A DNA stretch of 64,000 bases. Origin: Asterias amurensis. Lineage: Eukaryota. Under the pieces are notes generated by a model. It made no database searches and was not told the origin of the DNA. It was given only the letters and a program-made list of their open reading frames with translations. The stretch covers positions 19,654,621 through 19,718,620 of the forward strand of contig NC_092661.1 of NCBI RefSeq assembly GCF_032118995.1, read 5' to 3'. The first letter of the stretch is position 1. Each line of letters starts with the position of its first letter. The position numbers were made by a program, and so were the translations under genes. Below are positions 25,584 through 45,005 of this stretch, piece by piece.

Positions 25584-25815
25584 GATCTACTTGACTCGTT
25601 TTGCGCCTTTATCAAAATCCTCCTTGTTTAACCGATATCCCCAATGCTGCAACGTTTGCCTTACTACCGGTGAAACACCAAAGTTGTCAAAGGCATTCCC
25701 GCTGCGTACACACTTTGCAATAAGGTTGTTCCTCCAGCGACCTTTGAACCCAGCACATCTTGACCATCGACCTATCTGTCTTTCATCATCATCACTGCGT
25801 CTTCCCAGGTAGAAT
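25584..25815 (-). CDS. Conserved hypothetical protein, last exon (RFYLGRRSDDDERQIGRWSRCAGFKGRWRNNLIAKCVRSGNAFDNFGVSPVVRQTLQHWGYRLNKEDFDKGAKRVK*)
   Basis: Acceptor ttgacatccag|; continuous ORF to stop; phase-compatible with the upstream exon. Confidence 0.6.
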
Positions 25816-26124
25816 CTGGATGTCAATATGGACAGAAATGTTCAAGATGTTGTTTCTGAAAACTGCATCATTATGAGCATGAGTAAACTTTTCTTTCATT
25901 AATTCTGCTTCCCCACACTGTTATTTGTTCTTGTTCACTGTGATAAGACTGAGGTACAAAGGAATATAAAGCCTTCCTTTAAAAAATAGGAATGAACAAC
26001 AAGATCAAGAAACAAAACAATAGTACAAATTTGCGCCTTGTTGTGTAGGTTCCTATGTAGTTATTTCTATATCTATCTCCTTGATAGTTCTTTTTCCTTA
26101 CGAGGCATCTTTAGAATTCTTACC

Positions 26125-26254
26125 TGCAATACCATTGGAACCAGCCATAGGGGTCTTGTTTACGCATCCAACCACTGCTCTCCCACATGTTTAAGTCTCC
26201 TCCACACTTGACTTTATATGTGTTGACTTCTGTGTTATAAGTTGCTGCTGATAC
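26125..26254 (-). CDS. Conserved hypothetical protein, exon 4 (VSAATYNTEVNTYKVKCGGDLNMWESSGWMRKQDPYGWFQWYC)
   Basis: Acceptor cttgtgtag|, donor TTGCAG|gtaaga. Confidence 0.6.
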
Positions 26255-26803
26255 CTACACAAGATGGCCAACAATTCATTATTATCAGCTGAATGGCCGA
26301 CATAGTTTACCATAGATGAGGTCTTACATGGGGAATGACAGAAATATAAATTAATTGTATAATCCCTCACTATGCTCTTGCAGATGAGCACAAGAGTTAC
26401 TTTACTAATTTATAGACTGTGTAAGTCTTGCACATTGGGCCAAATTGAAGTCTACAACTTTGTTTCCTTCGCACAACTTAAGTATGCTGATAGCGGAGAT
26501 AACTAAATGTTCAAATACATGCAGGTCTTGCCTTGTATATAGGCTTGGTGCTGTTTTTAACTTCCCATTTACCACAACCCTGTCACCCTAATAATAATTA
26601 ATAAGACTTGTAATGCGCACATATCCACCATGCTGGGTGTTCAAGGCACAGTAAAAACCCTGCCTGTCTGTTACTGATCCTTGTTTCCTTATTTTCCACC
26701 ATTTACCCTTTGAGGAATACTGTGCTAGTGTCAAAAAGTGAGGTCATTAACAATGACTTTGTAAAATGTAACAAATTATTGACAATCATCGCTCTATAGA
26801 TAC

Positions 26804-26866
26804 CTTTTTTGCTATATTGATACCCTCCAGCCAGTCTTGAGGCAGTTCTTTCCATACTCCAGAGTA
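26804..26866 (-). CDS. Conserved hypothetical protein, exon 3 (GEKYSGVWKELPQDWLEGINIAKK)
   Basis: Acceptor ttatttattccag|, donor AAAAAAG|gtatct; phase-consistent. Confidence 0.55.
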
Positions 26867-27308
26867 CTTCTCACCTGGAATAAATAATAACCATGAAATA
26901 ATTATTAGAAAAATCAACGTGTGTAAGTGCAGAAGGTTGTATTTTGATTTTGCAAAAAAGTCATAACTTGTGCATAACGAAAGGGCTATTTTGGGAGACA
27001 ATGTCTTTGCCAGAGAATTTGACCGGAAACTTTAAATTGTTATCATTAATAGAAGAATTACTTCTGTGCTAAATGGAGACTTTATTTTGACCCTAGGTGG
27101 CAGCAGATTTAAATCCATTGTTCTTGAAAATCAACACAAGCTGAGATACTGTGTATGTCTCATCTGATGCCACCTCTTGTTCCAAAGTCTCTCATTACCT
27201 CCCATTTTACTGCTCCGAAAGCTTTATGGTTCCCATGATTAGAATTATCGCAAGAGCATAATTGGGGGGGGGGGGGCGGGTGGAATTACAAGCATCACAA
27301 CACCTTAC

Positions 27309-27500
27309 CTGTGACACCTGATTTGATGGGACGATAGTAAGTCCCACCAAAGCTACCTGCTTGCAGTATCTCTGCTGGCGTCATATTAGGGTAGATATCT
27401 GGGCAGTCTTCAAAGATGCATTCTCCCTTTTTGTTTCGTTTTGGCATGGGTGCTGTGTAACCTTCTCTCTGGCGTACCTCCTCCTCAAATGCCGTTGGTC
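27309..27500 (-). CDS. Conserved hypothetical protein, exon 2 (GPTAFEEEVRQREGYTAPMPKRNKKGECIFEDCPDIYPNMTPAEILQAGSFGGTYYRPIKSGVT)
   Basis: Weak acceptor cataaaag|, strong donor GTCACAG|gtaagg; phase 1 in and out. Confidence 0.55.
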
Positions 27501-27951
27501 CTTTTATGAGAATGGAAACTTATTTCAGTTTAATCGTGCATATTTGAAAAGAATGGAATGAGTCAATGAACATTAAGAGGTTTTAAAGACAGGTTCTGAA
27601 GATAAACTAAATTGAAAAAAGTATTTTAGCCCTTACATTTTATTTGAAATGCGTCGGACAAAAACCCTACAGATAGAGCTATGTGCGACAAATTGCTATT
27701 TAAAAACAAAATGTCTGCCATTTTTGTTTATGATAGGTTAAGAAATAGGAATAACTTCTGGATGAACTCTTTGCAAGATTTTAAGCCTGTTACAAGTTAC
27801 GCAAGTTTTAGAAGTGAAACAAGAATAGATAATACATACATACAGACCTGGAATTCAATCTTTGAAAGGGCAAAGCCATTTTCATTTTGAAAGGGCAAGG
27901 CCATTTTAATTTTGAACAGGGCACTCAACATATTTCTTTCCCTGATTTTAC

Positions 27952-28117
27952 CTGAAGTTGTCTTGGCTTCTTTCTTGGCTATTTCTGTGGGTTTCTTATC
28001 AGCATCTGATGTACTCTTCTTCGCCTTCTTCTTTGGTTCTTCATCTGATTTACCAGATGCTTTTCTCTTTGTTGATGTCTGCGCTGTATCTGTGGATTTC
28101 TTAGTGGGACGTCCCAT
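27952..28117 (-). CDS. Conserved hypothetical protein, exon 1 (MGRPTKKSTDTAQTSTKRKASGKSDEEPKKKAKKSTSDADKKPTEIAKKEAKTTS; Lys-rich, NLS-like). An alternative in-frame ATG lies at 28180
   Basis: ATG-initiated ORF, donor ACTTCAG|gtaaaa; about 640 bp from the divergent SEC63 start. Confidence 0.55.
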
Positions 28118-28760
28118 CCTGATTAGTCTACAAACCAGATCAGAGATCAAAGTTGGATCAGGAGTGCAGCTATATGACAAGCCCTGAAGTCAACCCCCAC
28201 CCCCCCCCCGGGCCCCCAACAATGCCTCATCCCATGAATCCTCCCATGAGGTTCGTTCCGCTATCGTCTCCACGAAAGAGCCTATGGGGCATACGACAAG
28301 CTGTGCTGCTTTGTTCAACCTTACCATGAAGCAATACTGCTTTATGCAACGGGAATGCAGAGCACCCTTCCTTTACTCTTCAACAAGGGGTCAGCATTCA
28401 GGCTCAGGCATCACAAATAATCACTACGAAAGTAATATGAGACTGACTTCTAAAACATTGAATAGTTTTAATGATGGATTTTCTTACAATGTAAGTTACA
28501 TGTTACTTTACCTGTTTATATTTCCCCGGACACAAATGTAGCTCAAACACATTCGTCTTTTTTTGAAAACTGCAGTTATGTAACTTCAAGTTTTACCGCG
28601 TACCAGACGGAAGAGGGCGCTGTTTACATCGACGTGTAATTATTCTTTTTACATTAGTACGAACGGTTAGTGCATGCCGTCTGCACCATTCTAGATGCAT
28701 GTGTACATACATGCAAAAGAAGTAACCGCACGTAAACCACCATTCCTACTTTACGCATCT
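28118..28760. promoter_or_regulatory. Probable bidirectional promoter between SEC63 (plus) and the conserved hypothetical gene (minus)
   Basis: Divergent ATGs about 640 bp apart; locally CpG-containing (…accgcgtaccagacggaagagggcgctg…cgacgtg…). Confidence 0.5.
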
Positions 28761-28891
28761 GTCGTGCAAGATGTCTGCCCAGTTTGAGTACGACGAATCG
28801 GGTGGCACTTCTCTCTATTTTCTTGTTTCTTTCTATGCCTTGTTTCTGTTCCCACTTACATATTACTTGTGGCCTTCTAAGCAAAAGAAAG
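28761..28891 (+). CDS. SEC63: SEC63 exon 1 (MSAQFEYDESGGTSLYFLVSFYALFLFPLTYYLWPSKQKK)
   Basis: Matches the vertebrate SEC63 N-terminus (MAGQQFQYDDSGNTFFYFLTSF…YYLWP); donor AAAG|gtgagt. Confidence 0.85.
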
Positions 28892-29926
28892 GTGAGTATG
28901 AAATGCGACTAATATAAGTGTTTTTTTTGGATGAAATATAAAAAATGGTGACAAGTGAAGTTTTATCTTACTACTGCCCAACTCTGGTCTGCTGCTGATT
29001 GGCATGACACTCTTCTCCGTCCATCTGGTATTCATAATCAACATAAATTGATTGAGAAACCATGCCAATTTCATGTGTGTTTTCTGCCAGAAACTGGCAA
29101 CCTGTCATTTAGTTATTGTTTAGGGCCTACTTTTAGTTTTTTTTTTTTAGTATAGTCATTTTATTTCTAGCCACACTTGTGTGGTCAAGGATAGCTGAAT
29201 CCAGCTGTCCTTGGTCTTGGCCACACAAGTGGGGCTAAATCATTTCTTGACATTTCATATTTAATATAAATAATTTTCATAAATACATAGTTCGATAACC
29301 AAATCTTCTAGGAAGAGCACGGATTTGATCTTCAATGGTGTAATTAATCAGTTAACACTACACATAAAGAAAATATTTTGAATAAATTACCAGAATTTTC
29401 ATGAACCTAACTATTAACCTAAACGCTAGTTGATGTTTTTTTAACTTCTCACTTGCAACATATCTATCAATCACTTCAGTGTAAGAAAACTAATTGACGA
29501 GAGCCACACCTACACAGTGGTTTATTTTATCCTGGTTGGTTGAGTTGAGATTTCGTTCAGAAATCTGAGGTTCAAAAAAATACTTTTGTGCGCATAAATT
29601 GATTTTATTATCGTCACTTTTTTTCCCGAAATTGTTTTTCTAACATAACAAATAAATCAATCAAATTTAAAATTCAAACAAGTTTAACAATATGAGGCAA
29701 AGGTTTATAGAAAATTTTGGTACTTTTTTTTTTGGGGGGGGGGATAATACCCCCACAACTATGCCTCTATTTGTGAGATTATTTTGCAATGAGATTGCAA
29801 AATTAGAAAGGTTAATTGTGGAGGCAGACAGTTCACTTGTGTCAAAGGTAATTGTATGACAAAAAACTAAAGAAACAACTTCAAGTTTAAAAAAAATGTA
29901 TGTAACGGAAATTAAAGAATTTCACT

Positions 29927-30300
29927 TAAAGCCATGTTACACTTTCGGTAAACAGTATTGTCCAAGTCCCACACTTCGTGTATCACAACTAATATATAAA
30001 ATGACAATCCTGTGGAAATTTAGGCTCAATCGGACATCGGAGTCGGGAGAAAATAACGGGAAAACCCACTCCTGTTTTCGCGCGCTTCGCGATGTTATGA
30101 CATGTGTTTATAACAAATCCGTAATTCTCGCTAACGAGAATTTATATTGTTTTACCGTTTTCTCAAAAAGTAAAGCATTTCATGGACTAATATTTCAAGA
30201 GAAGTCTTTCACCATTACCTTCTGTAAACCCTGTAAATTATTTGTAAATCTGTGAACTTTTTTTTTTTTTTCCTGTACCGAAAGGGTCCAATGGCTTTAA
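29927..30300. mobile_element. MITE copy B of the same family (TIR …ccgaaagggtccaatggctttaaag)
   Basis: Aligns along its length with 1022..1399; sits in SEC63 intron 1. Confidence 0.7.
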
Positions 30301-30731
30301 AGTTCAACAAGTTAGCCTAAATGCACCATATAGCAAATCTTTTCAACACAAAAGGACCACAATATGTAGTTTGGTTAGACGGTTACACATTTGTGAGTTC
30401 AATGAACAATCATGGTGTTTTGAGAGCAACTATCTATATGCTGAATCTGTCAATGATTAGTCTGAAGTTTTATTTTATACATAATCTACATGTAGTATAA
30501 GGGAACAAAAACTAAGGACAAAGGAACATCAATCATGGTTCATCAGGCAATTTTTACTCTGAAGTCTGTACTTGATGTGATGGGTTGCATGCTGCTAGGA
30601 GCTGTCAATATAGATGGACTCTATTATATCAAAAGTGGTAGAAGGAATATGGAAAATAACGGATAACTATTAACATTGTTTGTTTGTAAACTGTTCAATG
30701 ATTGTTAATGCTATTTTTTGTTTTTCATCAG

Positions 30732-30837
30732 ATGATCCAGAGAAGCTCAAGAAACAATGCCAATGTCATCCCTGCCTGGTCAAGAAAGCCAAACTCCAGG
30801 CAAAGAAACCCACTCAGAAACTTCGACATCTTCTGAA
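30732..30837 (+). CDS. SEC63: SEC63 exon 2 (DDPEKLKKQCQCHPCLVKKAKLQAKKPTQKLRHLLK)
   Basis: Acceptor tttttcatcag|, donor CTGAA|gtaagt; phase-consistent. Confidence 0.7.
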
Positions 30838-31059
30838 GTAAGTTGCATTGATGTCAAGTATTGTGTTAAAATCAAGCAGCTGGCATAGACATATCTATGG
30901 TAACGACCCTGTTTATTGAAATTTCAATAATTTGTTGGATTATCTGGCATTTTATGTTTGCATTTAGACTATTTTGTTCTTAGTAAAATTACATGTGCTT
31001 GATTACCATGAACATAAAATTAAGTTAAGTTTGAACTAAGTTTTTTTCCATTCCTGTAG

Positions 31060-31179
31060 GTGGGGTTTGTTATTTGGCGCTTGGGTATTGTTCATATATC
31101 TTGCAGTCCGGGCATCTCAAGTGGAACGAGATCATGTGGAATATGATCCATATGACATCTTGGAACTCGACCGAGTAAG
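31060..31179 (+). CDS. SEC63: SEC63 exon 3 (TM2 WGLLFGAWVLFIYLAVRASQVERDHVEYDPYDILELDR)
   Basis: Acceptor ttccattcctgtag|, donor GACCGA|gtaagt; matches vertebrate …EYQEYNPYEVLNLD. Confidence 0.8.
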
Positions 31180-31999
31180 TTTTCTCAATTATCAAAATTA
31201 CTCATGACTATTTATGACTCGTCGTTATTATATTTATATGTAGTATGTATTAACACTTCCTTGAAAAAATGTCTGTTTCATTGTTACAGACCTTTTGGCA
31301 AGTACCCATTTGGCATGCCCTAACTGTTGGATGAGAATTGTGCTTGTCTAGTTAGCGATCAAACTTGATCGCTGGCTAAACCAGCATGCACCTCATTCCA
31401 TGCCTATTATGCGCGTACCGAGTATTTGCGATGGATGACAGAATTGCGAAGGCTACCAATAAGAACAAATATTCCTGTCTGTATCGTGTAACTGGACTTT
31501 TGAATTGTGGGTGACACCTTCCCTTTCAGCCTTATCAATGAGTTTCATATCTAGAGTTCTCTCTATGCTTATCAAACCATTATGCACACGTTACGCCAAG
31601 CTAATGACCTTAGTTTCAATCCTTTGAATCCTAAGTCGTTAATCCTTAAATAATGTTAAAGAAAGGTGTATTTATCTTTGTAAGTATCTACTGTTTGAAT
31701 GGGTCAATGGAGATAACTGTTAACCCTCCTATAGGTTTATACACCAAGAAGCCTCAAAATCTCCCACATGGTACACACCAAGCAGTGATTTAACTCTTAT
31801 ACTTTCCTGTCATTGTGTTTGCATGTGATCCATCAGTACCACAGATTGCCACTGCAGAAACTGACTGAGGTTGAGAACCTTATCTCTTCCAATAGTTGCC
31901 CCCAATTCCATTGCAGTTGTGCACGGCTCATGGCTTCTCCAATTTAACACTCTCAATGAAGAACCTTGAGCAGTAGCTTTACTCTGTGTGCCTTATAGG

Positions 32000-32575
32000 C
32001 CTGGGCGAATTATTCGAATATCCGGTTAATGGCGAATAGGTTTTCCTATCTGTAACCACGAATGCCTTTTTTTCTTAACCGTATATCCGTATAGGGCGCG
32101 AATACCTATTTATAAACCAGATAGTTCTGTAATTACAACCAAGTAACCGGATATTCTTTAATATCCGAATATCCGCGGATGCCGGGCGACAACTGATATG
32201 AATGTTTTATCTGAATCCTTATGAAACTTCTATTAAGACAGCATAAAACAGCATAAATTAAGTATTTAACTATGCTCACCTCTGTGAAGAGTTAAAACAA
32301 TGACATTTCCGACGTATTTTGTTCAAAGATTACAAAAGTTTTTCCTTCACGTAGAGTCAATCACGATCAAAAGAAAAAATCGCCATCTTTAAATTAGATC
32401 CGGTCATTTTTATGAATGAACCGAGTGACACTGTCTAAAACTAATAATATATATATATTTTTTTTAATAGCGCCCTCTAGCGGCGAAAAAAACTATTCGA
32501 ATATCCAGTTAATTTCGGATAGTTGGCCAGCGGTATCCGAATAACAAAATTTCACTATTCGCCCAGAACTAGTGC
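32000..32575. mobile_element. Non-autonomous DNA element with TIR ggcctgggcgaat…attcgcccagaac and internal cgaatatccg reiterations
   Basis: Inverted termini read from the sequence; SEC63 intron 3. Confidence 0.5.
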
Positions 32576-32665
32576 CTTAAAATGCCACTGTTGTGCCATA
32601 ATGAGGTATGGGTTGGTATGGATAGTAGGATGGTTTTAATCCAGATGTATTTCTCTTCTATTCAG

Positions 32666-32777
32666 GGGGTAACACAAGCAGAGATTAAGAGGAAGTACCG
32701 TCTCCTGACTAAGACCAAACATCCTGATAAAGGAGGAGATCCAGTGGAGTTTATGAGAATAGCCAAGGCATACGCAG
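32666..32777 (+). CDS. SEC63: SEC63 exon 4, J-domain core (GVTQAEIKRKYRLLTKTKHPDKGGDPVEFMRIAKAYAA)
   Basis: HPD motif; near-identical to vertebrate SEC63 AEIKKQYRLLSLKYHPDKGGDEVMFMRIAKAYAA. Confidence 0.9.
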
Positions 32778-33295
32778 CGTAAGATACTTTCAGCTTTCTG
32801 TCATGACGTATTTATCTAAACTGTGAGAAAACTATTGTGTGATGATGTTTGGAGAAATGTTAGCCACAGTGTTTTGAGATGACCAGTTAAGGATTAAGCA
32901 TAACTTATGTAGACCATTTATTATGTGTGATATAGTGCACAGGTTCAATGTAACGAAGGTTTTTCAAGAAGGTGTTATATCCAGCATGTCTGAGTTGAAA
33001 CCATCAGTGTTGCATAATTAAGTACGTCAGTCTAAGTACACAGCTTAGTAGTTTAATTATTAACTGATTAACTTATTTACTAGTCTCACTCAAGTATAGC
33101 CCTCGTCATTGCCCAAGCTCTCTGTATCAACTGTCATGTTTTGAAAGGATCAAAAGTGACACTTCTCTGTTTTCTAACATGACTAGTCTGTTCATGCAAC
33201 AAACCTATTTTATTTGATATTTATTTTGCTTAGGCTTTCGCTATGGCAGTATGGGCAACTCATCTTCGAATGACTGGTAGTGGTTTTTTATCACC

Positions 33296-33466
33296 AAAAC
33301 CAGGGGTTGATTTCACAAAGAGTTAGGACTAGTCTTATCTCAAGTTAGGACGAGTTACTAGTCCTAACTTAGGACTAGCTGTACGTTTTTGATATCTCTT
33401 AGGACTGGTCCTAAGTTAGGACCAGTCCTAACTCTTTGTGAAATCGACCCCAGACCTTTAAACTTG
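33296..33466. mobile_element. Small palindromic MITE (TIR ggggttgatttcacaaagagttaggact…)
   Basis: Near-perfect inverted halves; shares the GGGG(T/C)CGATTTCA terminus with the elements at 44748, 61440 and 63768. Confidence 0.6.
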
Positions 33467-33503
33467 CCATAATTGTAACATAATTTCATCCTCCTTGATG
33501 TAG

Positions 33504-33565
33504 ATTAACAGATGATGAATCAAGAGAAAACTGGGAGAAGTATGGCAATCCTGATGGCCCTACAG
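33504..33565 (+). CDS. SEC63: SEC63 exon 5 (LTDDESRENWEKYGNPDGPT)
   Basis: Matches LTDEESRKNWEEFGNPDGPQ; acceptor cttgatgtag|, donor TACAG|gtgagt. Confidence 0.85.
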
Positions 33566-34047
33566 GTGAGTGCAACTAGACTAGTTTATCCAGTCCATTT
33601 AACTTTCCACCCTCGTAAGTTCTTATACAAAGCGCTTCTTACTTTATTGATGGGGTTAAGTTTGAATGATGAGAATTGTGAGACCAGTCTATAAAGCACT
33701 TTGAAAGGGTTTATAAGGTGATGTGGTTGCAATCTACCACCAACCATGCAACAAATCAAGTGTACTGGGTTCTTTTACATGCATTACAGAAGAGATGCAG
33801 AGGACTTATGGTTAGATGTCAATGACACAAGTATCTTAGCCAGGACCTGAACCCACACTCTGACAAGACCAGAACTGAAGTTCATTTTCTTTTGATTTGC
33901 CACTCCATATTCTTCACCATATATCTGTCTTCAAGTGTAGGCAAAGTAAAATGTATCTTCATCACCATTTTAGTAATTGTGTTATACACTGTTGACCATA
34001 TACTTTCTGTTTGTGTCTTATATAAGCGTTTTATCTTTTGATTTCAG

Positions 34048-34106
34048 CTACCAGTTTTGGAATTGCTTTGCCAGCATGGGTTGTGGATCAAAATAACTCC
34101 ATTCTG
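34048..34106 (+). CDS. SEC63: SEC63 exon 6 (ATSFGIALPAWVVDQNNSIL)
   Basis: Near-identical to vertebrate ATSFGIALPAWIVDQKNSIL. Confidence 0.85.
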
Positions 34107-34489
34107 GTAATGTAGTCACAAGCCTTATTTATTTATAATTCAGTGTTATGTTAAGGGAAATTGATTTCAGACACTCTGCATTTATACCAGCATTGTTACC
34201 TTCAATTTGTGTGATTGGGTAAGAACTACATCTGAACTGTGGACATGAGAACAAATGAAGTCCACATAAGGATAGGTTTTGAAACACTATGTATAAAATA
34301 TTAAGTTTTCTACCTTGTAAAAAATGCTTTTCTTTTTTGTTACTTCTTTAAATGTAATTTTGGGGCAATATTCTGTTTGCAAAGAATATGATCTTTCTTC
34401 AGTGTAAAAAAGAACGGAATGTCCACAAAGTGACTGCAACACAGAGCTGTATGTTCTAATATAACTTGTTTTTCTTCTTTGGATATTAG

Positions 34490-34540
34490 GTACTTGGTGC
34501 ATATGGATTAGCGATAATGGTTATCTTACCCATTGCTGTG
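34490..34540 (+). CDS. SEC63: SEC63 exon 7 (VLGAYGLAIMVILPIAV)
   Basis: Acceptor ggatattag|, donor GCTGTG|gtgagt. Confidence 0.8.
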
Positions 34541-34705
34541 GTGAGTTTTAATTCATAAATCTTCTAACATTTTTATTAAGGTTCAAGCTGAGGTAGTTTG
34601 TCTAAATATTTAGTGAGACAAAATGTGTTGAGTTTTCACCCTCAAGCTGGATCCAATCTTGAATCTTTGTTGATGTTTGTATGTCTGATATACACTTTCT
34701 TCCAG

Positions 34706-34814
34706 GGTACATGGTGGTATCGCTCTATTCGTTACAGTGCAGTTGAAGTACTTCTTGATACATCTCAACTCTTTCTTCACTTCATCTACAAGACACCATG
34801 CTTGAATCTTAAAA
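34706..34814 (+). CDS. SEC63: SEC63 exon 8 (GTWWYRSIRYSAVEVLLDTSQLFLHFIYKTPCLNLK)
   Basis: Matches vertebrate GSWWYRSIRYSGDQILIRTTQIYTYFVYKT. Confidence 0.85.
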
Positions 34815-35364
34815 GTAAGCTGTATTTCTACAAATATAACATGGTTTGAGGATGAACAATTGGTATCAGCTCCTTGAGGTATTGGAAGATGACAAACTAA
34901 TCTGTCAACTTCCTATACCCATGAGGAGAGCTTATATCGATTGTCCACCTGAATTGAACCCTGATGTTTTCTTTTATTGTAGTGCATCTTTATTGTCCAC
35001 TATTTTCTCTAGCAGATTGACGTTTAGAAGTAATGCGATGCATCTTTTTATTTGTACTTGGCTGGCTAGGGCAGAAAGTGCGCTCATAGTAGAATGTTGT
35101 TCGTGCATCCCATAGGACAGTATTGTTTGTTTCTGCTTTAGTGTATGTGTGTTTTCTTTGTTCATGAATATGCGTGCCAAGCTTGGTAAACAGCTCAAAT
35201 AGCATCTGGCCTGTGATGGTGAATGGCCTAGTTAGAATTCAACTCTTGATCATGAATATATATGAGCTATAGTTATTTTGATCTGTCATTGTTTGATTTT
35301 AAATGGATTTTCCCTTTTGATAATGCCTTGTTGTATGACTTGAGTTGTCTGTATTTTTCTTCAG

Positions 35365-35459
35365 GAGCTTTGATGATATTATCAGGATCTTTTGAGTTTG
35401 AGGAGAAGCATAACAGTGAGATTGTGCTTCGGCCGAGTGACAATGAAGAACTTCCTCCG
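35365..35459 (+). CDS. SEC63: SEC63 exon 9 (ALMILSGSFEFEEKHNSEIVLRPSDNEELPP)
   Basis: Acceptor tttttcttcag|, donor CCTCCG|gtaagc. Confidence 0.75.
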
Positions 35460-35689
35460 GTAAGCGCTTACAATTCCATCTAACCCAAACTCACACAGTC
35501 TTATGTTGAATGACAATTTTATTCTCCAGTTTGTAGCATTTAAAAGCTTTAAGAGAGAAGACTTGAGTGAATTTATGGTCCTTAATGTTTCTGTTGTCAT
35601 TTCTTCAAGGGTATCGTCTACTAAGCACTGTCCTTCATAAGGCTTGTGAGTTTAGCATACCTCTGATACAATAGATTGTAGTTATACTA

Positions 35690-36760
35690 CATATCTATTA
35701 ACCCTCCTTGTGCTGTTTGTCCTTTCAATGTCATTCACTGTGGTTTGGAATGATAGATGAAGTAGAAGTAGGTCTTCCTGCAATATGATATCATGTCCAT
35801 TGTCCACAAAGCTCTAAATGGCAAGGCTCCCCACTATATTTCTGAACTGCTTCAAGTTTACACTCCATCAAGGAATCTTCGATCAAGTTCCATGCTTCTC
35901 CTCATTGAACCCAAGTCTCGACACTCATGGGGTGACAGGTCTTTTTCTTCAGCCGCCCCACGCATCTGGAACTCTCTACCACTTAATCTTCGATCTTGTG
36001 TTAGTACCGCAAAATTCAAGTCTCTTCTCAAAACTTATCTTATGTCACAGGTTTTCAATGACTAATTTTGTTGTGTCTGTTTTTCTTTGTGTTGTGTTTT
36101 GTTTTTGTTTTGTTTTTGGTTTTTACTGCGCCTTGAACACCCAGCAGGGTGGATATGTGCGCATTACAAGTCTTATTATTATTATTATTATGTATTGAAT
36201 GTATCAATGCAGTACATAGTCAACCCTCCTACTGTCTGATCATTAAATGTCATCCACTGTGGTTTGGAATGATGGATGAAGTATGTCTTCCTGCAATATG
36301 ATATGTGTTGAATGTATCAATGCAGCACATAGTCAACCCTCCTACTGTCTGATCACTAAATGTCATCCACTGTGGTTTGGAATGATAGCTGAAGTATGTC
36401 TTCTTGCAATATGATATCATGTGTTGAATGTATCAATGCAGTACATAGTCAACCCTCCTACTGTCTGATCATTAAATGTCATCCACTGTGGTTTGGAATG
36501 ATAGATGAAGTATGTCTTCCTGCAATATGATATGTGTTGAATGTATCAATGCAGCACATAGTCAACCCTCCTACTGTCTGATCACTAAATGTCATCCACT
36601 GTGGTTTGGAATGATAGCTGAAGTATGTCTTCTTGCAATATGATATCATGTGTTGAATGTATCAATGCAGCACATAGTCAACCCTCCTACATTTCAACCA
36701 CTAAATGTCATCCACTGTGGTTTTGAATGATAAATAAACTGTATAAGCCTGGTATATGAT
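35690..36760. repeat. Tandem repeat, ~120-bp unit ×~5 (…gtcaaccctcctactgtctgatcattaaatgtcatccactgtggtttggaatgatagatgaagtatgtcttcctgcaatatgatat…)
   Basis: Direct periodicity; SEC63 intron 9; interrupted by the SINE insertion. Confidence 0.85.
35793..36200 (+). mobile_element. SINE-like element with an (ATT)n tail, inserted into a 120-bp tandem-repeat unit
   Basis: Carries the widely dispersed pseudo-ORF motif …PSRNLRSS…GDRSFSSAAPRIWNSLP…FKSLLKTYL typical of Deu/CORE-type SINEs; interrupts a repeat unit between …gatatcatgt and gttgaatgtatc…. Confidence 0.55.
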
Positions 36761-37031
36761 GTGGTGAATGTATATCTATACAGCACACTGTCAACCCTCC
36801 TACTGTAATGCAATGTTTTGTAAGGCGCATAAACTAGACCACTCTGCAATATGATATGTACACAGTTAGTTCCATGCCTAGTTGTGCCACCATACACAAC
36901 CCTTGCTGCTGAATGGTTTTAAATGGTGGGTCAACTTAGTGGAAATGTTACACAGAGTAGGAGAGTTTTAATTTGAGATGACTTGACTATAAGGATGTAC
37001 ATGACATAACTGTTTTGTGATGTGTGTTTAG

Positions 37032-37170
37032 CTGATGCGTGAATTTGACAGCGAGTATGGGAAGAAGAGTAAGGAGAAACCCTTTGTGTATCCATACAGC
37101 CGTAAAGCAAGGATTCTTCTCTATGCTCACTTAGCTAGGACTGAACTCCCACTAGAAACTCTGGATGTTG
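37032..37170 (+). CDS. SEC63: SEC63 exon 10 (LMREFDSEYGKKSKEKPFVYPYSRKARILLYAHLARTELPLETLDV)
   Basis: Matches vertebrate …CPYSLKARVLLLSHLARMKIPETLE. Confidence 0.8.
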
Positions 37171-37456
37171 GTAAGTCACCTCAAATCAAACTTTGATAAT
37201 GCACCTATTTGTAACTTATTCACAACTTGAATGATGCTTGTGGCACCTAAACATTATTACTCCTTTCATTCAGCCATTTGAAGAACTGAAACTCACACTT
37301 ACCACATGTAGTTTATTGTCTAGCTGTTTTACTAATTGATTAAATTACCATAAATGAACTTGGACATGGCTTGTGACATCTACGTTACAACCTTCTTGCT
37401 TACAACACTGTTAGTGTGAACATCTTACCCTAATGTTTTGCTTTGATTGGTTACAG

Positions 37457-37549
37457 ACAAGAAGTACATCGTCAGCAAATGTCCGCAGTTGATTCAAGAA
37501 ATGATCAATACTGCCTCTCAGCTTGTCACATGGAAAAACTATGGCAGAG
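37457..37549 (+). CDS. SEC63: SEC63 exon 11 (DKKYIVSKCPQLIQEMINTASQLVTWKNYGR)
   Basis: Matches DQQFMLKKCPALLQEMVNVICQLI. Confidence 0.8.
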
Positions 37550-38010
37550 GTAAGAAGGCTTATATCAAGGGTTGCCAAAATAATACCAGAGCCTGTTTGA
37601 ATTGTTATACTTCATAACGGAGTGCTTTGTGGCAAAGTGAACGTGCACTTTGGTTTGAATTCTGGTCATGACTCTTGTGTCTTTGAGAAAGACACTTTAC
37701 TGTAATTGCTTCTCTTCACCCGGGAGTTAATGAGGCACCTGTTAGGGTTGAGGTTGTTGTTGTGAATGATTAGCAATCTGTGCACCCATTTGCAATGGTT
37801 CAGGGAAAGATTTAAGTCTGATAAACAGCTGTATCAAATGGTGCAAATTGCTTGGCAGACTATTTCTATTCAAATAATTTCTGTCATAAGCAACTGTGCT
37901 TAGAACTTTTTAATTTACAGGAGCAAGGCATTAGATTTGTTGTTATTGCTATGGCTGCAGTGTTCATGGTGCATTTTATAAATGATTGTAATTTGTTATT
38001 TTTTTATTAG

Positions 38011-38141
38011 TGGCTAAAGAGCCTCGTCTTGAGTCCATAGAGTTCCTGATGCGTCAGAGCCCAATGATTGTCCAAGCTTGCTGGGACAAAACACCTCTAC
38101 TACAACTGCCACATTTTAATGAAGATACACTGCGAAAAAAG
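38011..38141 (+). CDS. SEC63: SEC63 exon 12 (VAKEPRLESIEFLMRQSPMIVQACWDKTPLLQLPHFNEDTLRKK)
   Basis: Matches …SPLLQLPHIEEDNLRRV. Confidence 0.8.
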
Positions 38142-38349
38142 GTACAGTTTGGATTCAGCAAAATCTTGTTATTGTATTTTCTCAAGCTGTCAACTTTGGC
38201 CCTTCAAACCTGTTTCTAAATACTCAACAATTTGATTGTAATAAGTATTCAACTCATCAACCTTTGTTATCATCCATACTTACAATGGAGATGCATGTTC
38301 CTGCTGCATCAGAGATTCAGCTAATTTTCTATATCTGTTATCTTTCCAG

Positions 38350-38402
38350 CGCCACATTAAAGCCATTAGTCAGTTCGTCAAAATGAAGGATGCCGATAGA
38401 AG
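38350..38402 (+). CDS. SEC63: SEC63 exon 13 (RHIKAISQFVKMKDADRR)
   Basis: Acceptor tctttccag|, donor GAAG|gtaaga. Confidence 0.7.
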
Positions 38403-38759
38403 GTAAGAGTAAATAAAGAAAACAATCAAGATGAATTAAACTGCAGGTCCAAAACTAAACTCCCTGTTCCCAAACTTCAGTCTTTGCATTCAAAGAAGTA
38501 AACGCATATGAGGGATCCTTCCTTTACTGTAGCTGCACCTAGGATTTGGACAAACATTTTCCCCAACGTCAGACAATCTTCTGCAAAAGCCATTTTCAAA
38601 ATAAGTCCTACCTTTTTTACGAGAGCTTACTGTAGGGTGCTATGAGTAATGACCATTAGACTGGCACCTTAGAAATTGATTGACTTATTGAGTGATTGAC
38701 TGATTGGTCTTTATTTACAGCAATGGTTTATTGTTGATCCATAAATTTGTTTCTTGCAG

Positions 38760-38854
38760 GAACATTCTTCGTCATCTTCATGAGAAGCAATATCAGGACA
38801 TTCTGAACGTCTTGAAGTCACTGCCCAAATTGGATGCAGATGTGGAGCTAGAAG
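38760..38854 (+). CDS. SEC63: SEC63 exon 14 (NILRHLHEKQYQDILNVLKSLPKLDADVELE)
   Basis: Matches vertebrate HTLLHFLEDEKYEEVMAVLGSFP. Confidence 0.75.
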
Positions 38855-39080
38855 GTAACAATAATTGAGTAACATTTTGTTATTCCCAACTATTGGCACT
38901 TTAATAATCAAAACCTACTATCCCAACAAAATGTTACTCATTATGTGTCATCCCAAGTGGCAATTATTTTATAAACTTATTATTTATGTCCTTTGAGAAA
39001 ATCTCCGTCTGCCATTTGATGAGACAATTGTGTTTGGATTTAACTGACTTGTGATTGTTTTTTTTTGATGATTTATTTAG

Positions 39081-39163
39081 TTCTTGCTGATGAGGACAAG
39101 AAGTCGATAACTGCAGGGTCTTTGGTAACGGCCACAGTCACCCTGAGGAGAGGCACATTTCAG
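39081..39163 (+). CDS. SEC63: SEC63 exon 15 (VLADEDKKSITAGSLVTATVTLRRGTFQ)
   Basis: Matches VLDDEDSNNITVGSLVTVLVKL. Confidence 0.8.
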
Positions 39164-39694
39164 GTCAGTTACCATGGAAATACTTACATTTTCACAAATT
39201 ATATCAGGAACACAGATTGAATCCTCAGGATTATGGAGTTTTTAAGTTTCTATTAACCCTAACCCTTCAAAATCCGGTGTCGTCTGATTTCAGATGATTA
39301 AGAACTGTAGTGAATAACGATTGCTAAGGTATACCAATCTTACCTTGGTCCAGTTTGTTGTGGAGTACCAGTGAATGTGGAATGGGGGATAGTGGAAGGT
39401 TTAGGTCACCTGTGGCCAATTTGGCCTAGGGACTCAAGGGTTAATGAGTACTTCATTGGCACCAGGCCTGGAATTTCTTCTTAGAAAGGGCAAGGCCATT
39501 TTCATTTTTTGCAAAGGGAAAACTTTTGAAGGGGCACAAAGGCCAAGACCAGGGGCACTGAAGCCATGGCCTCCGTGGCCTGTGTGTAACTCTAGGCCTG
39601 TGGCACCGTGCACAAAGAGAATAGAATGCAAGTTTTGTGTTGGCTTGTTACACTAGTAATAAAGTGATGAGTGTTTTTCTTGTTTTCTATGTAG

Positions 39695-39772
39695 GTGTTG
39701 GATGATGAAAGCAATGATCCAGTAGATGCTGTGGAAGACGCTGTTGTAGAAGACACATTAGATGAAGATAAA
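39695..39772 (+). CDS. SEC63: SEC63 exon 16 (VLDDESNDPVDAVEDAVVEDTLDEDK)
   Basis: Acceptor ttttctatgtag|, donor ATAAA|gtaaga. Confidence 0.65.
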
Positions 39773-40129
39773 GTAAGACTAGAACCTAATTGTCTTGATA
39801 AGAACTAAATCTTCAAGTTAGACTTCACAAACAAGATCTTCAACTTTCTCAATTGCAACTTTTTAATTTAGATTGACGAGGGTTGTTGTTAACACGCATA
39901 CCCCATATCCACCTGACTTGTCACAGAACATGAAAACCAATCCTGGCTAAGCCCATTGAGGGCTTTATTACTGCATTTCAAGAAACACTCATTATTAACT
40001 GCTTTGCAAATAAACATATCCCAACAAACTGTGTACTGTTGGAAAGAGTACATAAATCTCTCTTATGTGATAAGTATATTTTATAAGAGATGTTAGATTT
40101 GCATCCGGGATAAAGAATATTAATTTTGG

Positions 40130-40575
40130 TTTTACCCATACACCGATGTGTGTTAGCACTGTATATTCAGTACTTTCCCGAGTCCTGTGAAAAATAAAAA
40201 TCACAGGCATGTTACTCGGGTGGGATTCGAACCCACGACCCTTGCAATTCTAGAGCAGTGTCTTACCAACTAGACTACAAAGGTTGCCCGGTAGCTGGAG
40301 GCAGTTTGAATCCTATGTTTTGGCAGTGGGTACCGCAACGATATAAGAGATGTTAAATTTGCAGGTACCCGCTGCCAAAACATAGGATTCAAACTGTCTC
40401 TACCTACCGGGCAACCTTGGTAGTCAAGTTGGTAAGACACTGCTCTAGAATTGCAAGGGTCGTGGGTTAGAATCCAACCCGAGTTTACATGCCTGTGATA
40501 TTTTTTTACAGGACTCGGGAAAGTACTGAGTATACAGTGCTAACACACATTGGTGTATGGGTAAAAACAAAAATT
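40130..40575. repeat. ~440-bp near-perfect palindrome built from two head-to-head tRNA-SINE copies
   Basis: Left arm 40130-40335 is the reverse complement of right arm 40365-40575, with very few mismatches; SEC63 intron 16. Confidence 0.85.
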
Positions 40576-40749
40576 AATATTCTTTATCCCCGATGCAAAG
40601 TATATTTGAGCAAGTCGGCTAATTTTGATTTACAGATTTGACTGTCTGAAGAATCGAGTGAATAACAAAAACCAATATTTCATGTTGACACCAACTTGAC
40701 TGCAATCAAATCTTGAGTTGTTGATGATTCATGTTGCATTCCTCATCAG

Positions 40750-40965
40750 ACTGATTCACCAGTACCACACAAACCCAAGACTCATGTTTGGGAGAAACAC
40801 AGAAGAAAAAAGAACAAAGGAGGAGGAGGAGGAGCTAAGAACAAAGCCCAGAAGAAGCAGGCTACTAAGAAAGCAGCCGCAGCAGCAGCACTGAAAGCAG
40901 CGGAGGAATCACCTCAACACAATGGCAAAGGAGCCGCTAACCATGTTAGCAATAATACTAAAGGG
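40750..40965 (+). CDS. SEC63: SEC63 exon 17, basic Lys/Ala-rich segment (TDSPVPHKPKTHVWEKHRRKKNKGGGGGAKNKAQKKQATKKAAAAAALKAAEESPQHNGKG…)
   Basis: Corresponds to the basic KSKKKKPLKKK region of vertebrate SEC63. Confidence 0.7.
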
Positions 40966-41613
40966 GTAGGTTGTTGCCCAGAATAATATTGCACTGAGTT
41001 TCCATACGGCTATATGGATTCACTTAGGGAAAGAATATTCCAATGTTGGTTCATCAACCTTAACCACCCCAACCCATTGAAATCCAACTGCGTGTTTTGT
41101 TTGATTCTGTTGGACTAAGGACTGTGCTGTGCTCCCTTAACATGAGATCAGGCATACCACCATAATCAGAGTCCAACTTTGGGTTTTGAGTTACCATGTG
41201 GTATTGGATTTTCTTAGAGTTAAAAAGGCAGTGTACACAGATTGCCTGAACGCAGATACGCACAGATAAATACTATTACAGCATACTCTTTTCAGGTTCC
41301 ATACGCCTCTCTTAATATTTATGCATGAGGTTCGTCACAATCTAACCCAAAACGAGGCTAAAGGCGCAGCACTGCAAGTGGTGGCAGACTTGCGCCCATA
41401 GCCTCATTTTGGACAAAAATTATGATAAATATTAAGAGATGTGTATAGATGTGGAACTATAACTAGAATTGAAGAAAAAAATTCATGATCTTTACTGAGA
41501 ATCGAATTGAAAATCATTGTCCTTTAAAAAAAAAAAAAAAAATTATGACTTATTAAAATTTATCAAAACTACTCCAAAATTAATGAAGATGAATCTGATG
41601 TTTTTGTATTCAG

Positions 41614-41702
41614 GCTATCCAGGAGCTGGATCCCAATAAAGACTCGGGTGACAGTGGAAGTGAAAGTGACAATGAACAGGAGGATAACAGTAAACATTCA
41701 AG
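41614..41702 (+). CDS. SEC63: SEC63 exon 18, acidic (AIQELDPNKDSGDSGSESDNEQEDNSKHS)
   Basis: Acceptor tgtattcag|, donor CAAG|gtcagt; phase 2. Confidence 0.7.
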
Positions 41703-41937
41703 GTCAGTTTGTAAAACTTACCCTTAGATTTTTTTTTGTCAACAAGTTCACCAATTTGCTTATAAGTGTTTGCATCTATAGTTGAGATGTTATGCAAAAT
41801 AAATTTTGAGTTTTGTTGATACGCCTTGACGCCAAAGAAGAATGATCGTTTGTTGTGTATTCTTTCCGGAAGTGCATGTCGGATTCAAGGAGTTCAACAG
41901 TGACTAACATGGTTGAGTATTCATTTTAGATGGTGAC

Positions 41938-42328
41938 GGTTTTTAAAGACACTGGACACGATTGGTAATTATCAAAGACTAGTCTTCCCGCTTGGTGTAT
42001 CTCAACAAATGCATAAAATAACAAACTTATGAAAATTTGAGCTCAAACGGTTGTCAAAGTTGCGAGAAAAAAATGGAAGAAAAAACACCCTTGTCACACA
42101 AAGTTTTGTGCTTTCAAACGCTTGATTTCAAGACCTCAAATTCTAAATCTGAGGTCTCGAAATCAAATTCGTGGAAAATTACTTATTTCTCAAAAACTAC
42201 GTTACTTCAGAGGGAGCCGTTTCACACAATGTTTTATACTATCAACCTCTCCCCATTACTCGTTACCAAGTAAGGTTTTATGCTAATAATTATTTTGAGT
42301 AATTAACAATAAAGTCCACTGCCTTTAA
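41938..42328 (+). mobile_element. MITE family 2 copy (SEC63 intron 18)
   Basis: Same TIRs and internal hairpin. Confidence 0.8.
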
Positions 42329-42439
42329 GGCAATGTGTGATGGCGCACGTCTGCCTTTTATTTAACACTGGCAGGTGGGCTAATCTAGCCCCAGCTGTCA
42401 CCGTTTTGGACACAGCCTAACTTTAAAATCAGAAGAAAT

Positions 42440-43019: not shown

Positions 43020-43161
43020 TGATGATAATAACAGCAGCGATGGTGGAGAGCAAGAGGAAGAAGAATGGGAAAGGTTACAGTCTGGGATCACAAGGAAAGA
43101 GAAAGTTCTAGAAGGAACATCTAAGACTTCTCATGAGGTCCATTGTCCATACTTCCCGGAG
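43020..43161 (+). CDS. SEC63: SEC63 exon 19 (DDNNSSDGGEQEEEEWERLQSGITRKEKVLEGTSKTSHEVHCPYFPE)
   Basis: Matches …EAEWQELQQSIQRKERALLETKSKITHPVYSLYFPEE; the acceptor is the last copy of a 55-bp tandem unit. Confidence 0.75.
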
Positions 43162-43794: not shown

Positions 43795-43893
43795 GTAAAG
43801 CAGGAATGGTGGTGGATCTACCTAGCTGATAGGAAGACACATCGTATTATCACTTTACCTCAGATGATTTATGACCTTGTTGATGAAAAAGAT
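43795..43893 (+). CDS. SEC63: SEC63 exon 20 (VKQEWWWIYLADRKTHRIITLPQMIYDLVDEKD)
   Basis: Near-identical to vertebrate KQEWWWLYIADRKEQTLISMPYHVCTL. Confidence 0.9.
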
Positions 43894-44936: not shown

Positions 44937-45005
44937 TTAACTTCCATAGAGATGTAAACAAACTGATTGCTGATTGCATTATAATCAAATTCTGATTTCC
45001 TCCAA

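What the first reader, a model, noticed from the sequence alone, without database searches (positions are those of the whole stretch)
25584..28117. Unidentified conserved gene sharing a bidirectional promoter with SEC63
A five-exon gene can be assembled with fully phase-consistent GT-AG junctions. It encodes a Lys-rich, NLS-like N-terminus (MGRPTKKSTDTAQTSTKRKASGKSDEEPKKKAKK…). Downstream is a globular domain carrying the motifs CIFEDCPDIYPNMTPAEILQAGSFGGTYYRPIKS, TYKVKCGGDLNMWESSGWMRKQDPYGWFQWYCRFYLGRR and GFKGRWRNN. I cannot assign it to a named family from memory. Its start lies about 640 bp from the divergently oriented SEC63 start, so co-regulation is plausible.
Basis: partly seen in the sequence, partly recalled or inferred. 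Interest (0 to 1): 0.7.

Follow-up and report, generated by a model that had tools for sequence, protein, structure and literature searches.

The report
Unnamed conserved nuclear protein gene
This is a real starfish gene, head-to-head with SEC63, whose protein belongs to a very large, highly conserved family found in animals, protists, giant viruses, jumbo phages and bacteria. The family has no name, no curated model, no similar solved structure and no known function.

Summary
Five GT-AG, phase-consistent coding exons on the minus strand (28117-25587) give a 262-aa protein. It is 98% identical to RefSeq 'uncharacterized protein LOC117296450 [Asterias rubens]'. One extra 5' exon (28512 to about 28556) places the transcript start about 146 bp from SEC63's, inside a CpG-rich patch. 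The divergent SEC63 pairing also holds in a brittle star and a hemichordate but is broken in sea urchins and a sea cucumber.

The family ('zgc:113208' in fish) is very large. It includes:
- eukaryotes, with recurrent TFIIS-N fusions in protists;
- hundreds of giant-virus contigs, where it recurs next to RFC1 and FEN1;
- jumbo phages, near RNR, dUTPase and thymidylate synthase;
- a minimal ~145-aa bacterial form with more than 8000 clusters, recurrently in a tspO operon.

My best inference, at low to moderate confidence, is a nuclear factor or enzyme of a new fold that acts on DNA or another nucleic acid, linked to replication, repair or stress. No function has been shown.

The parts
28512..28556 (-). 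5' exon of the gene. It is probably untranslated. It holds a non-conserved upstream in-frame ATG at 28552, which RefSeq uses as the start codon.
   Evidence: P0001 carries 17 extra N-terminal residues encoded here. Donor GTAAAG lies after 28512 and the splice goes to the acceptor at 28127. The 5' end near 28556 comes from mapping the reference annotation onto the window.
27952..28127 (-). Exon with the likely true start codon (ATG at 28117). It encodes the Lys-rich, NLS-like tail, residues 1-55.
   Evidence: The tail has pI 10.1 with 15 Lys in 56 residues. It is disordered in the model. MG[RK]P is conserved in Acanthaster and Amphiura.
27309..27500 (-). Coding exon 2. It holds the eukaryote-specific helix and the start of the conserved core (FEDCPDIYPNMTPAEILQAGSFGGTYYRPIKS).
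   Evidence: AG|GACCAA acceptor and CACAG|GTAAGG donor. Invariant columns F85 to I114.
26804..26874 (-). Coding exon 3 (EKYSGVWKELPQDWLEGINIAKK).
   Evidence: The junctions are ungapped against a cDNA-like homologue.
26124..26254 (-). Coding exon 4 (VKCGGDLNMWESSGWMRKQDPYGWFQWYCR), the most conserved Trp-rich block.
   Evidence: The motif continues across the exon 4/5 junction exactly as in intronless homologues.
25587..25815 (-). Coding exon 5 with the stop codon. It holds GRRxx[DE]DxRQIxRW, GRWRNNL and SPVVRQTLQHWGY, the possible HTH-like C-terminal helices.
28557..28702 (.). Interval of about 146 bp between the two divergent transcript starts, i.e. the putative shared bidirectional promoter.
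   Evidence: The reference annotation has SEC63 ending at 9854 and the target starting at 10001 of L174, mapped to the window. CpG o/e is 1.29-1.38 in 28500-28800 against 0.47 for the whole window.
28703..28891 (+). SEC63 first exon (ATG at 28771; MSAQFEYDESGG...SKQKK).
   Evidence: The exon-1 peptide is found in the same divergent position in Asterias, Amphiura and Ptychodera.
28703..45141 (+). SEC63 gene body: a J-domain exon near 32.6 kb, Brl-domain exons, and an acidic C-terminus ending near 45141.
   Evidence: Pfam DnaJ 1.2e-10 and Sec63 Brl 7.6e-12 and 4.9e-7 on concatenated exon peptides.

Best explanation
Shown: this is a real, intron-containing, protein-coding gene, the Asterias orthologue of fish 'zgc:113208'. 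It is transcribed divergently from SEC63, and a small CpG-rich interval separates the two transcript starts. Shown: its 262-aa product has a disordered Lys-rich tail and a compact, mostly helical, strongly basic core of about 180 aa. That core belongs to a very large unnamed family shared by eukaryotes, giant viruses, jumbo phages and bacteria, with no similar solved structure. Inferred: the tail is a nuclear-localisation signal, and the core acts on DNA or another nucleic acid in the nucleus. It could be a binding factor, or more likely an enzyme. A candidate active site is the universally conserved acidic and basic cluster (D177, [DE]196, D197, R192, R193, R199, Q200, R203, R239, Q240, H244) together with the Trp/Tyr-rich surface. 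Inferred: the role is connected to replication, repair or stress-damage handling. The biochemical activity itself is unknown.
For: Gene reality:
- GT-AG exons in consistent phase.
- 98% identity to RefSeq LOC117296450.
- Ungapped alignment to a cDNA-like contig.
- 59 invariant columns among 34 eukaryotic sequences.

Promoter:
- 146 bp between annotated divergent gene ends.
- CpG o/e 1.3-1.4 in that interval.
- The pairing is conserved in Amphiura and Ptychodera.

New family and fold:
- No Pfam, NCBIfam, PHROG or PADLOC hit.
- No PDB hit by sequence or profile.

Breadth:
- 3435 eukaryote-type hits and 2517 representatives at 50% identity.
- 93 and 454 IMG/VR loci.
- At least 8000 bacterial clusters.
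- Eukaryotic and bacterial profiles align at 100% probability, E 3e-44.

Nucleic-acid or nuclear role:
- Core pI 9.3-10.0 and net charge +8 to +14 in all three clades.
- Lys-rich tail.
- TFIIS-N/Med26 fusion recurs in many protist clusters.
- An RFC1-like gene lies within the fetched flanks in 50 of 154 giant-virus loci, always on the opposite strand, with X identity as low as 27%.
- FEN1 lies about 2 kb away in 39 of 84 loci.
- Phage copies lie beside RNR and dUTPase (YerA41) and thymidylate synthase (pVa-21).
- One photolyase fusion exists.
Against: - No biochemical or genetic evidence exists. Literature searches found nothing.
- Giant-virus gene order is not operonic, and many of the loci come from related viruses.
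- The photolyase and Cu/Zn-SOD fusions are singletons.
- The clearest bacterial linkage is to TspO, a membrane porphyrin-binding stress protein. It occurs as a 4-nt overlapping operon in Rhizobium and Sinorhizobium, and in 7 of 59 assessable independent metagenomic loci. That linkage does not obviously point to DNA.
- E168 of the 'WE' motif is Gln in the bacterial branch.
- Nuclear localisation is inferred from composition only.
- Co-regulation with SEC63 is untested, and the tight spacing is seen only in Asterias.
Confidence: 0.4

Rival explanations
1. The domain is a small-molecule enzyme or binding protein for a tetrapyrrole or porphyrin, or for a damaged or modified nucleotide. It would work with TspO in oxidative or photo-oxidative stress. 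On this reading the basic charge and nuclear-type tail in animals are secondary.
For: - The tspO-X operon has a 4-nt overlap in R. etli and S. medicae and appears in all annotated rhizobial records.
- It also occurs in Mesorhizobium beside an ECF sigma/anti-sigma pair.
- Seven independent metagenomic loci carry it, with GC 0.36-0.65 and X proteins 58-76% identical.
- Other neighbours include DUF1295, SDR+DUF2867, SOUL haem-binding protein, MsrA and glyoxalase.
- There is a Cu/Zn-SOD fusion.
- Phage copies sit among nucleotide-pool enzymes.
- There are 11 universally conserved aromatic positions and a [DE]D/Arg cluster that could hold a phosphate-metal ligand.
Against: - TspO linkage is present in only about 12% of assessable bacterial loci. 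Most neighbours are unrelated (138 different Pfam families among 118 neighbours).
- The recurrent eukaryotic TFIIS-N fusions and the RFC1/FEN1 neighbourhood in giant viruses point to chromatin or DNA rather than to a metabolite.
- No similarity to any known haem, porphyrin or NTP-pyrophosphatase fold.
Confidence: 0.22
2. It is a non-enzymatic, HTH-type, sequence-specific DNA-binding transcription regulator.
Confidence: 0.12
3. The gene is a recent horizontal acquisition from a giant virus, an assembly contaminant or a decaying pseudogene, and is not a functional host gene.
For: Close intronless homologues (45-60% identity) are abundant in giant-virus contigs.
Against: - It has four coding introns plus a 5' intron with canonical sites, and an intact ORF.
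- Orthologues exist throughout Metazoa.
- Its position next to SEC63 is conserved in starfish, brittle star and hemichordate.
- The window and the reference differ by about 5% in DNA but only 2% in protein.
Confidence: 0.02

Closest known systems
RefSeq 'uncharacterized protein LOC117296450' (Asterias rubens) and its orthologues, 'zgc:113208' in fishes
   Same: 98% identical and the same exon structure and locus next to SEC63. Fish, salamander, lungfish, coelacanth, mollusc, annelid, cnidarian, crustacean and hemichordate proteins are 53-75% identical over the core.
   Different: The RefSeq model starts at a non-conserved upstream ATG, adding 17 aa. The window is a 93-96% identical haplotype or close relative. 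It lacks a 62-bp duplication that the reference carries at the exon-4 donor. None of these entries has a name or function.
Minimal bacterial and phage form (e.g. R. etli CFN42 RHE_RS25990 / WP_011428229.1; Yersinia phage YerA41_065)
   Same: Homologous over the whole 137-column core (hhalign 100%, E 3e-44). It shares 35 conserved positions, including DPxGWFxWYCR, GRRxx[DE]DxRQIxRW and RQxLxHWxY.
   Different: It is 145-170 aa with no tail. It lacks the eukaryotic insert between the GG motif and the PxxW motif. It has Q for E168 and an extra Cys/His set (H112, C120, C127 in CPR numbering). It is often co-transcribed with tspO. In YerA41 it is annotated as a 'structural protein'.
Tri-helical HTH / Myb / homeodomain-like DNA-binding modules
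   Same: About 40 residues superpose at 1.7-2.7 Å on TRF1, GcrA, Tc3, IstA, TetR and small-terminase DNA-binding domains. The domain is basic.
All-alpha DNA-repair or DNA-modification enzymes (HhH-GPD, AlkC/AlkD, T4 endonuclease V, HTH_42 glycosylases). This is an analogy from general knowledge only.
   Same: Small, basic and helical, with conserved acidic and aromatic residues. Present in viruses and cells. Genomic company with replication, repair and nucleotide-metabolism genes.
   Different: No structural or sequence similarity was detected. No activity has been shown. I recalled this resemblance; no test supports it.

Membership tests
Unnamed 'zgc:113208 / LOC117296450' family (this domain) | Full-length similarity, including the motifs FxDxPxFxPNxTP, GSFGGTY, WExxGW, DPYGWFxWYCRFYxGRR, DDxRQIxRW, GRW and SPVxRQTLQHWxY | tested here: met
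   E 4e-176 to the Asterias entry and 3435 hits. All motifs are invariant columns.
Any curated protein family (Pfam-A, NCBIfam, PHROGs, PADLOC) | Score above the family's gathering or curated threshold | tested here: not met
   No hit for the starfish protein or for the bacterial and viral forms. A scan of 108 diverse members at E <= 5 gave only sub-threshold noise.
Cdc73 C-terminal domain (PF05179) | Pfam score of at least 32.8 bits and a Ras-like fold | tested here: not met
HTH / Myb-like DNA-binding domains | Three-helix bundle with a recognition helix, at significant structural similarity | tested here: inconclusive
Bidirectional (head-to-head) promoter gene pair | Divergent orientation with less than 1 kb between transcript starts | tested here: met
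   146 bp between the annotated gene ends in the reference, mapped to about 28556 and 28703 in the window.
Bidirectional (head-to-head) promoter gene pair | CpG-rich, presumably unmethylated promoter patch | tested here: met
   CpG o/e 1.29-1.38 at 28500-28800 against 0.47 window-wide.
Bidirectional (head-to-head) promoter gene pair | Correlated expression of the two genes or shared regulatory elements | not testable with these tools
   No expression data are available here.
Bidirectional (head-to-head) promoter gene pair | Evolutionary conservation of the pairing | tested here: inconclusive
   Divergent SEC63 lies upstream in Asterias (213 bp from the target's annotated 5' end to the SEC63 ATG), Amphiura (about 5 kb) and Ptychodera (about 6.8 kb). 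It is absent within 10 kb in Diadema, Lytechinus and Apostichopus.
SEC63 (neighbour) | N-terminal TM segments, a luminal J domain and a Sec63/Brl domain | tested here: met
   DnaJ 1.2e-10 and Sec63 Brl 7.6e-12 and 4.9e-7 on exon peptides. The reference annotation agrees.

The most novel reading that the evidence does not exclude
The ~145-aa core is a previously undescribed enzyme fold, for example a new class of DNA- or nucleotide-damage-processing or base-modification enzyme. It would be shared by bacteria, jumbo phages, giant viruses and most aquatic eukaryotes, and apparently missing from amniotes, insects, nematodes, fungi and plants. Its bacterial coupling to TspO would then reveal a link between porphyrin or photo-oxidative stress sensing and nucleic-acid protection.
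Probability: 0.25. Interest if true: 0.85.

Novelty: categorically new. Interest (0 to 1): 0.62.

Why it matters
The gene's existence is not new. It is already predicted in RefSeq as 'uncharacterized'.

What the evidence shows is that it represents one of the larger protein families still lacking any curated model, name, solved structure or published function. The family has well over 10,000 sequence clusters. The animal and bacterial profiles align at 46% identity, and 35 positions are conserved across all three clades.

The family spans cellular life and two unrelated groups of large DNA viruses. Its fold is predicted with near-certainty yet matches nothing solved.

Families like this usually turn out to be enzymes or core nucleic-acid machinery. 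The conserved charged cluster gives direct mutagenesis targets. The cultivable hosts (Rhizobium etli, Sinorhizobium medicae, Vibrio and Yersinia phages, zebrafish zgc:113208) make the function directly testable. The tspO-X operon also offers a new handle on the long-debated function of bacterial TspO.

The SEC63 pairing is an example of microsynteny that predates the echinoderm-hemichordate split.

Tried and rejected
- **Curated libraries.** Pfam, NCBIfam, PHROGs and PADLOC scans of the starfish, viral and bacterial forms gave nothing.
- **Photolyase fusion (P0160).** It is a real single ORF on one 2.6-kb contig, but it is absent among the 120 nearest relatives. I treat it as anecdotal. The same applies to the Cu/Zn-SOD fusion.
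- **Thymidine hypermodification.** YerA41 and Carin-5 both have T-hypermodified DNA and both carry the gene. However, they and GN1 are one phage group, and SP-15 and RP13 were not among the tblastn hits. This is a weak lead only.
- **Bacterial operon analysis.** 118 immediate neighbours gave 138 Pfam families with no dominant partner. Only TspO, SDR+DUF2867, DUF1295 and YbgA-like proteins recur.
- **Restriction to CPR bacteria.** I rejected this: locus GC spans 0.30-0.69, and rhizobial and Phaeobacter replicons carry the gene.
- **Viral contaminant or pseudogene.** I rejected this because of the introns and the conserved synteny.
- **Literature.** Searches for zgc:113208, PTHR37948, the motif strings and a TspO partner found nothing relevant. 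Davey & de Bruijn 2000 on S. meliloti tspO is not held.
Full report
**1. The observation**

The region 25584-28117 carries, on the minus strand, five open exon segments. They join through canonical GT donors and AG acceptors and keep one reading frame:
- 28117-27952
- 27500-27309
- 26874-26804
- 26254-26124
- 25815-25587 (stop included)

Together they total 789 nt and encode 262 aa (raw sequence). The product is 98% identical over its full length to NCBI 'uncharacterized protein LOC117296450 [Asterias rubens]' (E 4e-176).

That RefSeq protein is 17 residues longer at the N-terminus. The extension is not conserved in the Acanthaster orthologue, whereas MG[RK]P is conserved.

Three of the four coding junctions fall inside blocks that align without gaps in two independent comparisons. 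The first is a 1093-nt cDNA-like contig with an uninterrupted 267-aa ORF from a related species. The second is the set of intronless viral and bacterial homologues. The invariant motif DPYGWFQWYCR|FYLGRR spans the exon 4/5 junction. The gene model is therefore confirmed well beyond chance.

**2. The SEC63 pairing**

The plus-strand neighbour is SEC63. Concatenated exon peptides hit DnaJ (1.2e-10) and the Sec63 Brl domain (7.6e-12 and 4.9e-7). Its ATG is at 28771, which is 654 bp from the target's ATG.

In the A. rubens reference (LR699102.1), the two annotated genes are divergent and only 146 bp apart. The window is 93-96% identical in DNA to that reference, so it is another haplotype or a very close relative. 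Mapping the annotation onto the window places the 5' ends at about 28556 (target) and 28703 (SEC63). Exactly this interval has CpG o/e of 1.29-1.38, against 0.47 for the whole window. That is the signature of a small unmethylated promoter island.

The divergent pairing is conserved in some relatives. SEC63 exon 1 lies about 5 kb upstream in the brittle star Amphiura and about 6.8 kb upstream in the hemichordate Ptychodera, with no annotated gene between. It is not found within 10 kb in the urchins Diadema and Lytechinus, where SAM decarboxylase lies upstream in Lytechinus, or in the sea cucumber Apostichopus.

The linkage is therefore ancient, at least ambulacrarian, but it is not universal. 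The very tight spacing is documented only for Asterias. Co-regulation is plausible but untested.

**3. The protein**

Residues 1-56 are Lys-rich (15 Lys, pI 10.1), disordered in the model and variable between species. They contain KRK...KKKAKK, which resembles a classical nuclear-localisation signal. That reading is an inference.

From about residue 76 the sequence is extraordinarily conserved, with 59 invariant columns among 34 sequences from echinoderms, molluscs, annelids, cnidarians, crustaceans, hemichordates, fishes, amphibians and protists.

A first AlphaFold model built from 34 close relatives had pLDDT 77.6. A second model of residues 76-262, built from 108 diverse eukaryotic, viral and bacterial sequences, reached pLDDT 97.7 and pTM 0.92. 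It is mostly helical, with ten helices and a few short strands.

**4. No known family or fold**

Every comparison with known families came back empty:
- Pfam, NCBIfam, PHROGs and PADLOC gave no hit for the starfish, viral or bacterial forms.
- phmmer and a 108-sequence profile found nothing in the PDB.
- Foldseek against the PDB gave a best E of 5.5.

**5. Distribution**

*Eukaryotes.* There are 3435 hits with the starfish query. A profile search of 1.84 billion representatives gave 2517 hits, of which 405 were below 1e-30. Named organisms in the two lists of 120 are marine and freshwater invertebrates, fishes, salamanders, lungfish and coelacanth. No amniote, insect, nematode, fungus or plant is listed. 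This is only suggestive of loss, because only the top hits are shown. Many protist clusters carry an N-terminal TFIIS-N/Med26 domain (PF08711). A diatom protein has two tandem copies.

*Giant viruses.* 93 and then 454 IMG/VR loci encode intronless copies. Some are fused to the giant-virus domains DUF5872 or DUF5824, and one is fused to Cu/Zn-SOD.

*Jumbo phages.* Copies occur in phages of Vibrio, Flavobacterium, Yersinia and Cobetia.

Listed hits are 68-86% identical to the query, and all are labelled 'hypothetical'. It was first seen in CPR/Patescibacteria MAGs. It is also present on replicons of Rhizobium, Sinorhizobium, Mesorhizobium and Phaeobacter. It also occurs in metagenomic loci spanning GC 0.30-0.69.

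The eukaryotic and bacterial profiles align over 137 columns at 100% probability (E 3e-44, 46% identity). Thirty-five positions are conserved in all three groups. They include Y110, N154, D177, R192, R193, [DE]196, D197, R199, Q200, R203, R239, Q240 and H244, plus eleven aromatic positions.

**6. Contextual clues to function**

(a) The core is strongly basic everywhere, with median pI 9.3-10.0 and net charge +8 to +14.

(b) In giant viruses, an RFC1-type clamp-loader subunit (E 1.5e-34 to yeast RFC1) lies within the fetched flanks, at a median gap of 645 bp, in 50 of 154 loci. It is always on the opposite strand to X, and the domain itself has diverged to as little as 27% identity among these loci. 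FEN1 (E 2e-51) lies about 2.2 kb away in 39 of 84 loci of the first set. Further neighbour clusters that look by eye like a YqaJ-type exonuclease and ThyX also recur, but I did not verify those two.

(c) In phage YerA41 the gene sits between the RNR alpha and beta subunits and dUTPase, and it is annotated 'structural protein'. In pVa-21 it is about 150 bp from a thymidylate-synthase-like gene. YerA41 and Carin-5 have hypermodified thymidine. However, they form one phage group, and related phages were not among the hits, so this is only a lead.

(d) In bacteria, neighbours are very diverse, with 138 Pfam families among 118 immediate neighbours. One linkage does recur, with TspO/MBR directly upstream on the same strand:
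- A 4-nt ATGA overlap in R. etli p42e and S. medicae.
- Every annotated rhizobial record.
- Mesorhizobium, next to an ECF sigma/anti-sigma pair.
- Seven of 59 assessable metagenomic loci that are mutually only 58-76% identical.

Other recurrent neighbours are SDR+DUF2867, DUF1295, a TudS/DUF1722 (YbgA-like) protein, SOUL, MsrA and DUF1801. I recall several of these from bacterial photo-oxidative stress regulons. That association is from my own knowledge and was not tested here.

(e) One eukaryotic transcript-like contig fuses a photolyase FAD-binding domain to the core. The fusion does not recur.

**7. Interpretation**

Shown:
- A real, conserved gene.
- Divergent from SEC63 across a CpG-rich interval of about 146 bp.
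- A product with a disordered basic tail and a confidently predicted, basic, helical core.
- A core belonging to a very large family with no curated model and no similar solved structure.

Inferred, in decreasing confidence:
- Nuclear localisation.
- Action on DNA or another nucleic acid.
- An enzymatic rather than purely structural role. The arguments are the extreme conservation across cellular domains and viruses, and a universally conserved cluster of three acidic and five or six basic or polar residues.
- A link to replication, repair or damage handling.

The TspO operon does not fit this picture easily. It supports a rival in which the domain handles a small molecule (porphyrin or a damaged nucleotide) under oxidative or photo-oxidative stress. 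A unifying idea would be protection or repair of nucleic acids or nucleotide pools from photo-oxidative damage. That idea is speculation.

I give about 0.97 to gene reality, about 0.85 to 'no known family or fold', about 0.4 to the nucleic-acid-directed nuclear function and about 0.2 to the small-molecule rival.

**8. Novelty and score**

The locus is already predicted in RefSeq, so the gene as such is not a discovery. The bidirectional arrangement is an ordinary genomic feature, although it is nicely conserved.

The family is a real known unknown of unusual size, conservation and phyletic breadth, with a confidently predicted fold that matches nothing solved. On the evidence available it lies outside every known kind of protein family. 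For that reason I rate it 'categorically new' at the family and fold level.

This rating carries an explicit caveat. AFDB, ESM and HHsearch-level comparisons could not be run here and might still connect it to a known superfamily. Interest is 0.62.

Noticed in passing
window 26124-26185 (minus strand); reference locus L174 12613 and 12675: The A. rubens reference assembly carries a 62-bp tandem duplication of the 3' end of coding exon 4 together with its GT donor. The window has a single copy. Use of the second donor in the reference would shift the frame.
   Followed up: yes
window 26589-26659 and 36118-36187: A 71-bp dispersed repeat (96% identical, inverted) is shared by intron 3 of the gene and a SEC63 intron. 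The SEC63 copy abuts a tandem array of 113 bp x 5.4 at 36186-36806.
   Followed up: partly
window 42455-43031: A nearly perfect tandem array (58 bp x 10, 97% matches) lies inside SEC63, immediately upstream of an exon that starts near 43060.
   Followed up: partly
window 27861-27923; about 27262-27275; about 28196-28215: A 25-bp x 2.5 tandem repeat lies in the first coding intron. There is a G homopolymer run in intron 2 and a C-rich run in the 5' intron.
   Followed up: no
window below about 22985, minus strand: Per the reference annotation, the next gene downstream of the target is a large ankyrin-repeat protein (1396 aa).
   Followed up: no
S. meliloti 1021 pSymA NC_003037.1 589919-590233 (hit H65): In S. 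meliloti strains, the copy next to tspO (SMa1079) matches only residues 14-118 of the S. medicae protein. It is probably a truncated pseudogene, whereas S. medicae and Rhizobium copies are intact.
   Followed up: partly
L179 (R. etli p42e) 4641-6432; L182 (S. medicae) 3639-5429: Gene order is conserved: fasciclin (nex18-like), then TspO, then X, with a DUF378 gene between fasciclin and TspO in R. etli. tspO and X overlap by 4 nt. In S. meliloti, nex18 and tspO are reported as stress- or symbiosis-induced (PMC2651895, PMC2848241).
   Followed up: partly
L186 (Phaeobacter sp. G2 plasmid) 4977-5489: Here the domain gene overlaps the 3' end of the plasmid replication-initiation gene by 4 nt rather than following tspO.
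   Followed up: no
L081 and L048: A contig binned as 'Candidatus Neomarinimicrobiota' in GTDB has the same length and the same coordinates as an IMG/VR viral contig that encodes the eukaryote- or giant-virus-type domain. It is probably a viral contig mis-binned into a bacterial MAG.
   Followed up: partly
P0122 (Nitzschia sp., 657 aa): This diatom protein contains two tandem copies of the domain. The first copy is truncated after the WYCRFYQ motif.
   Followed up: no
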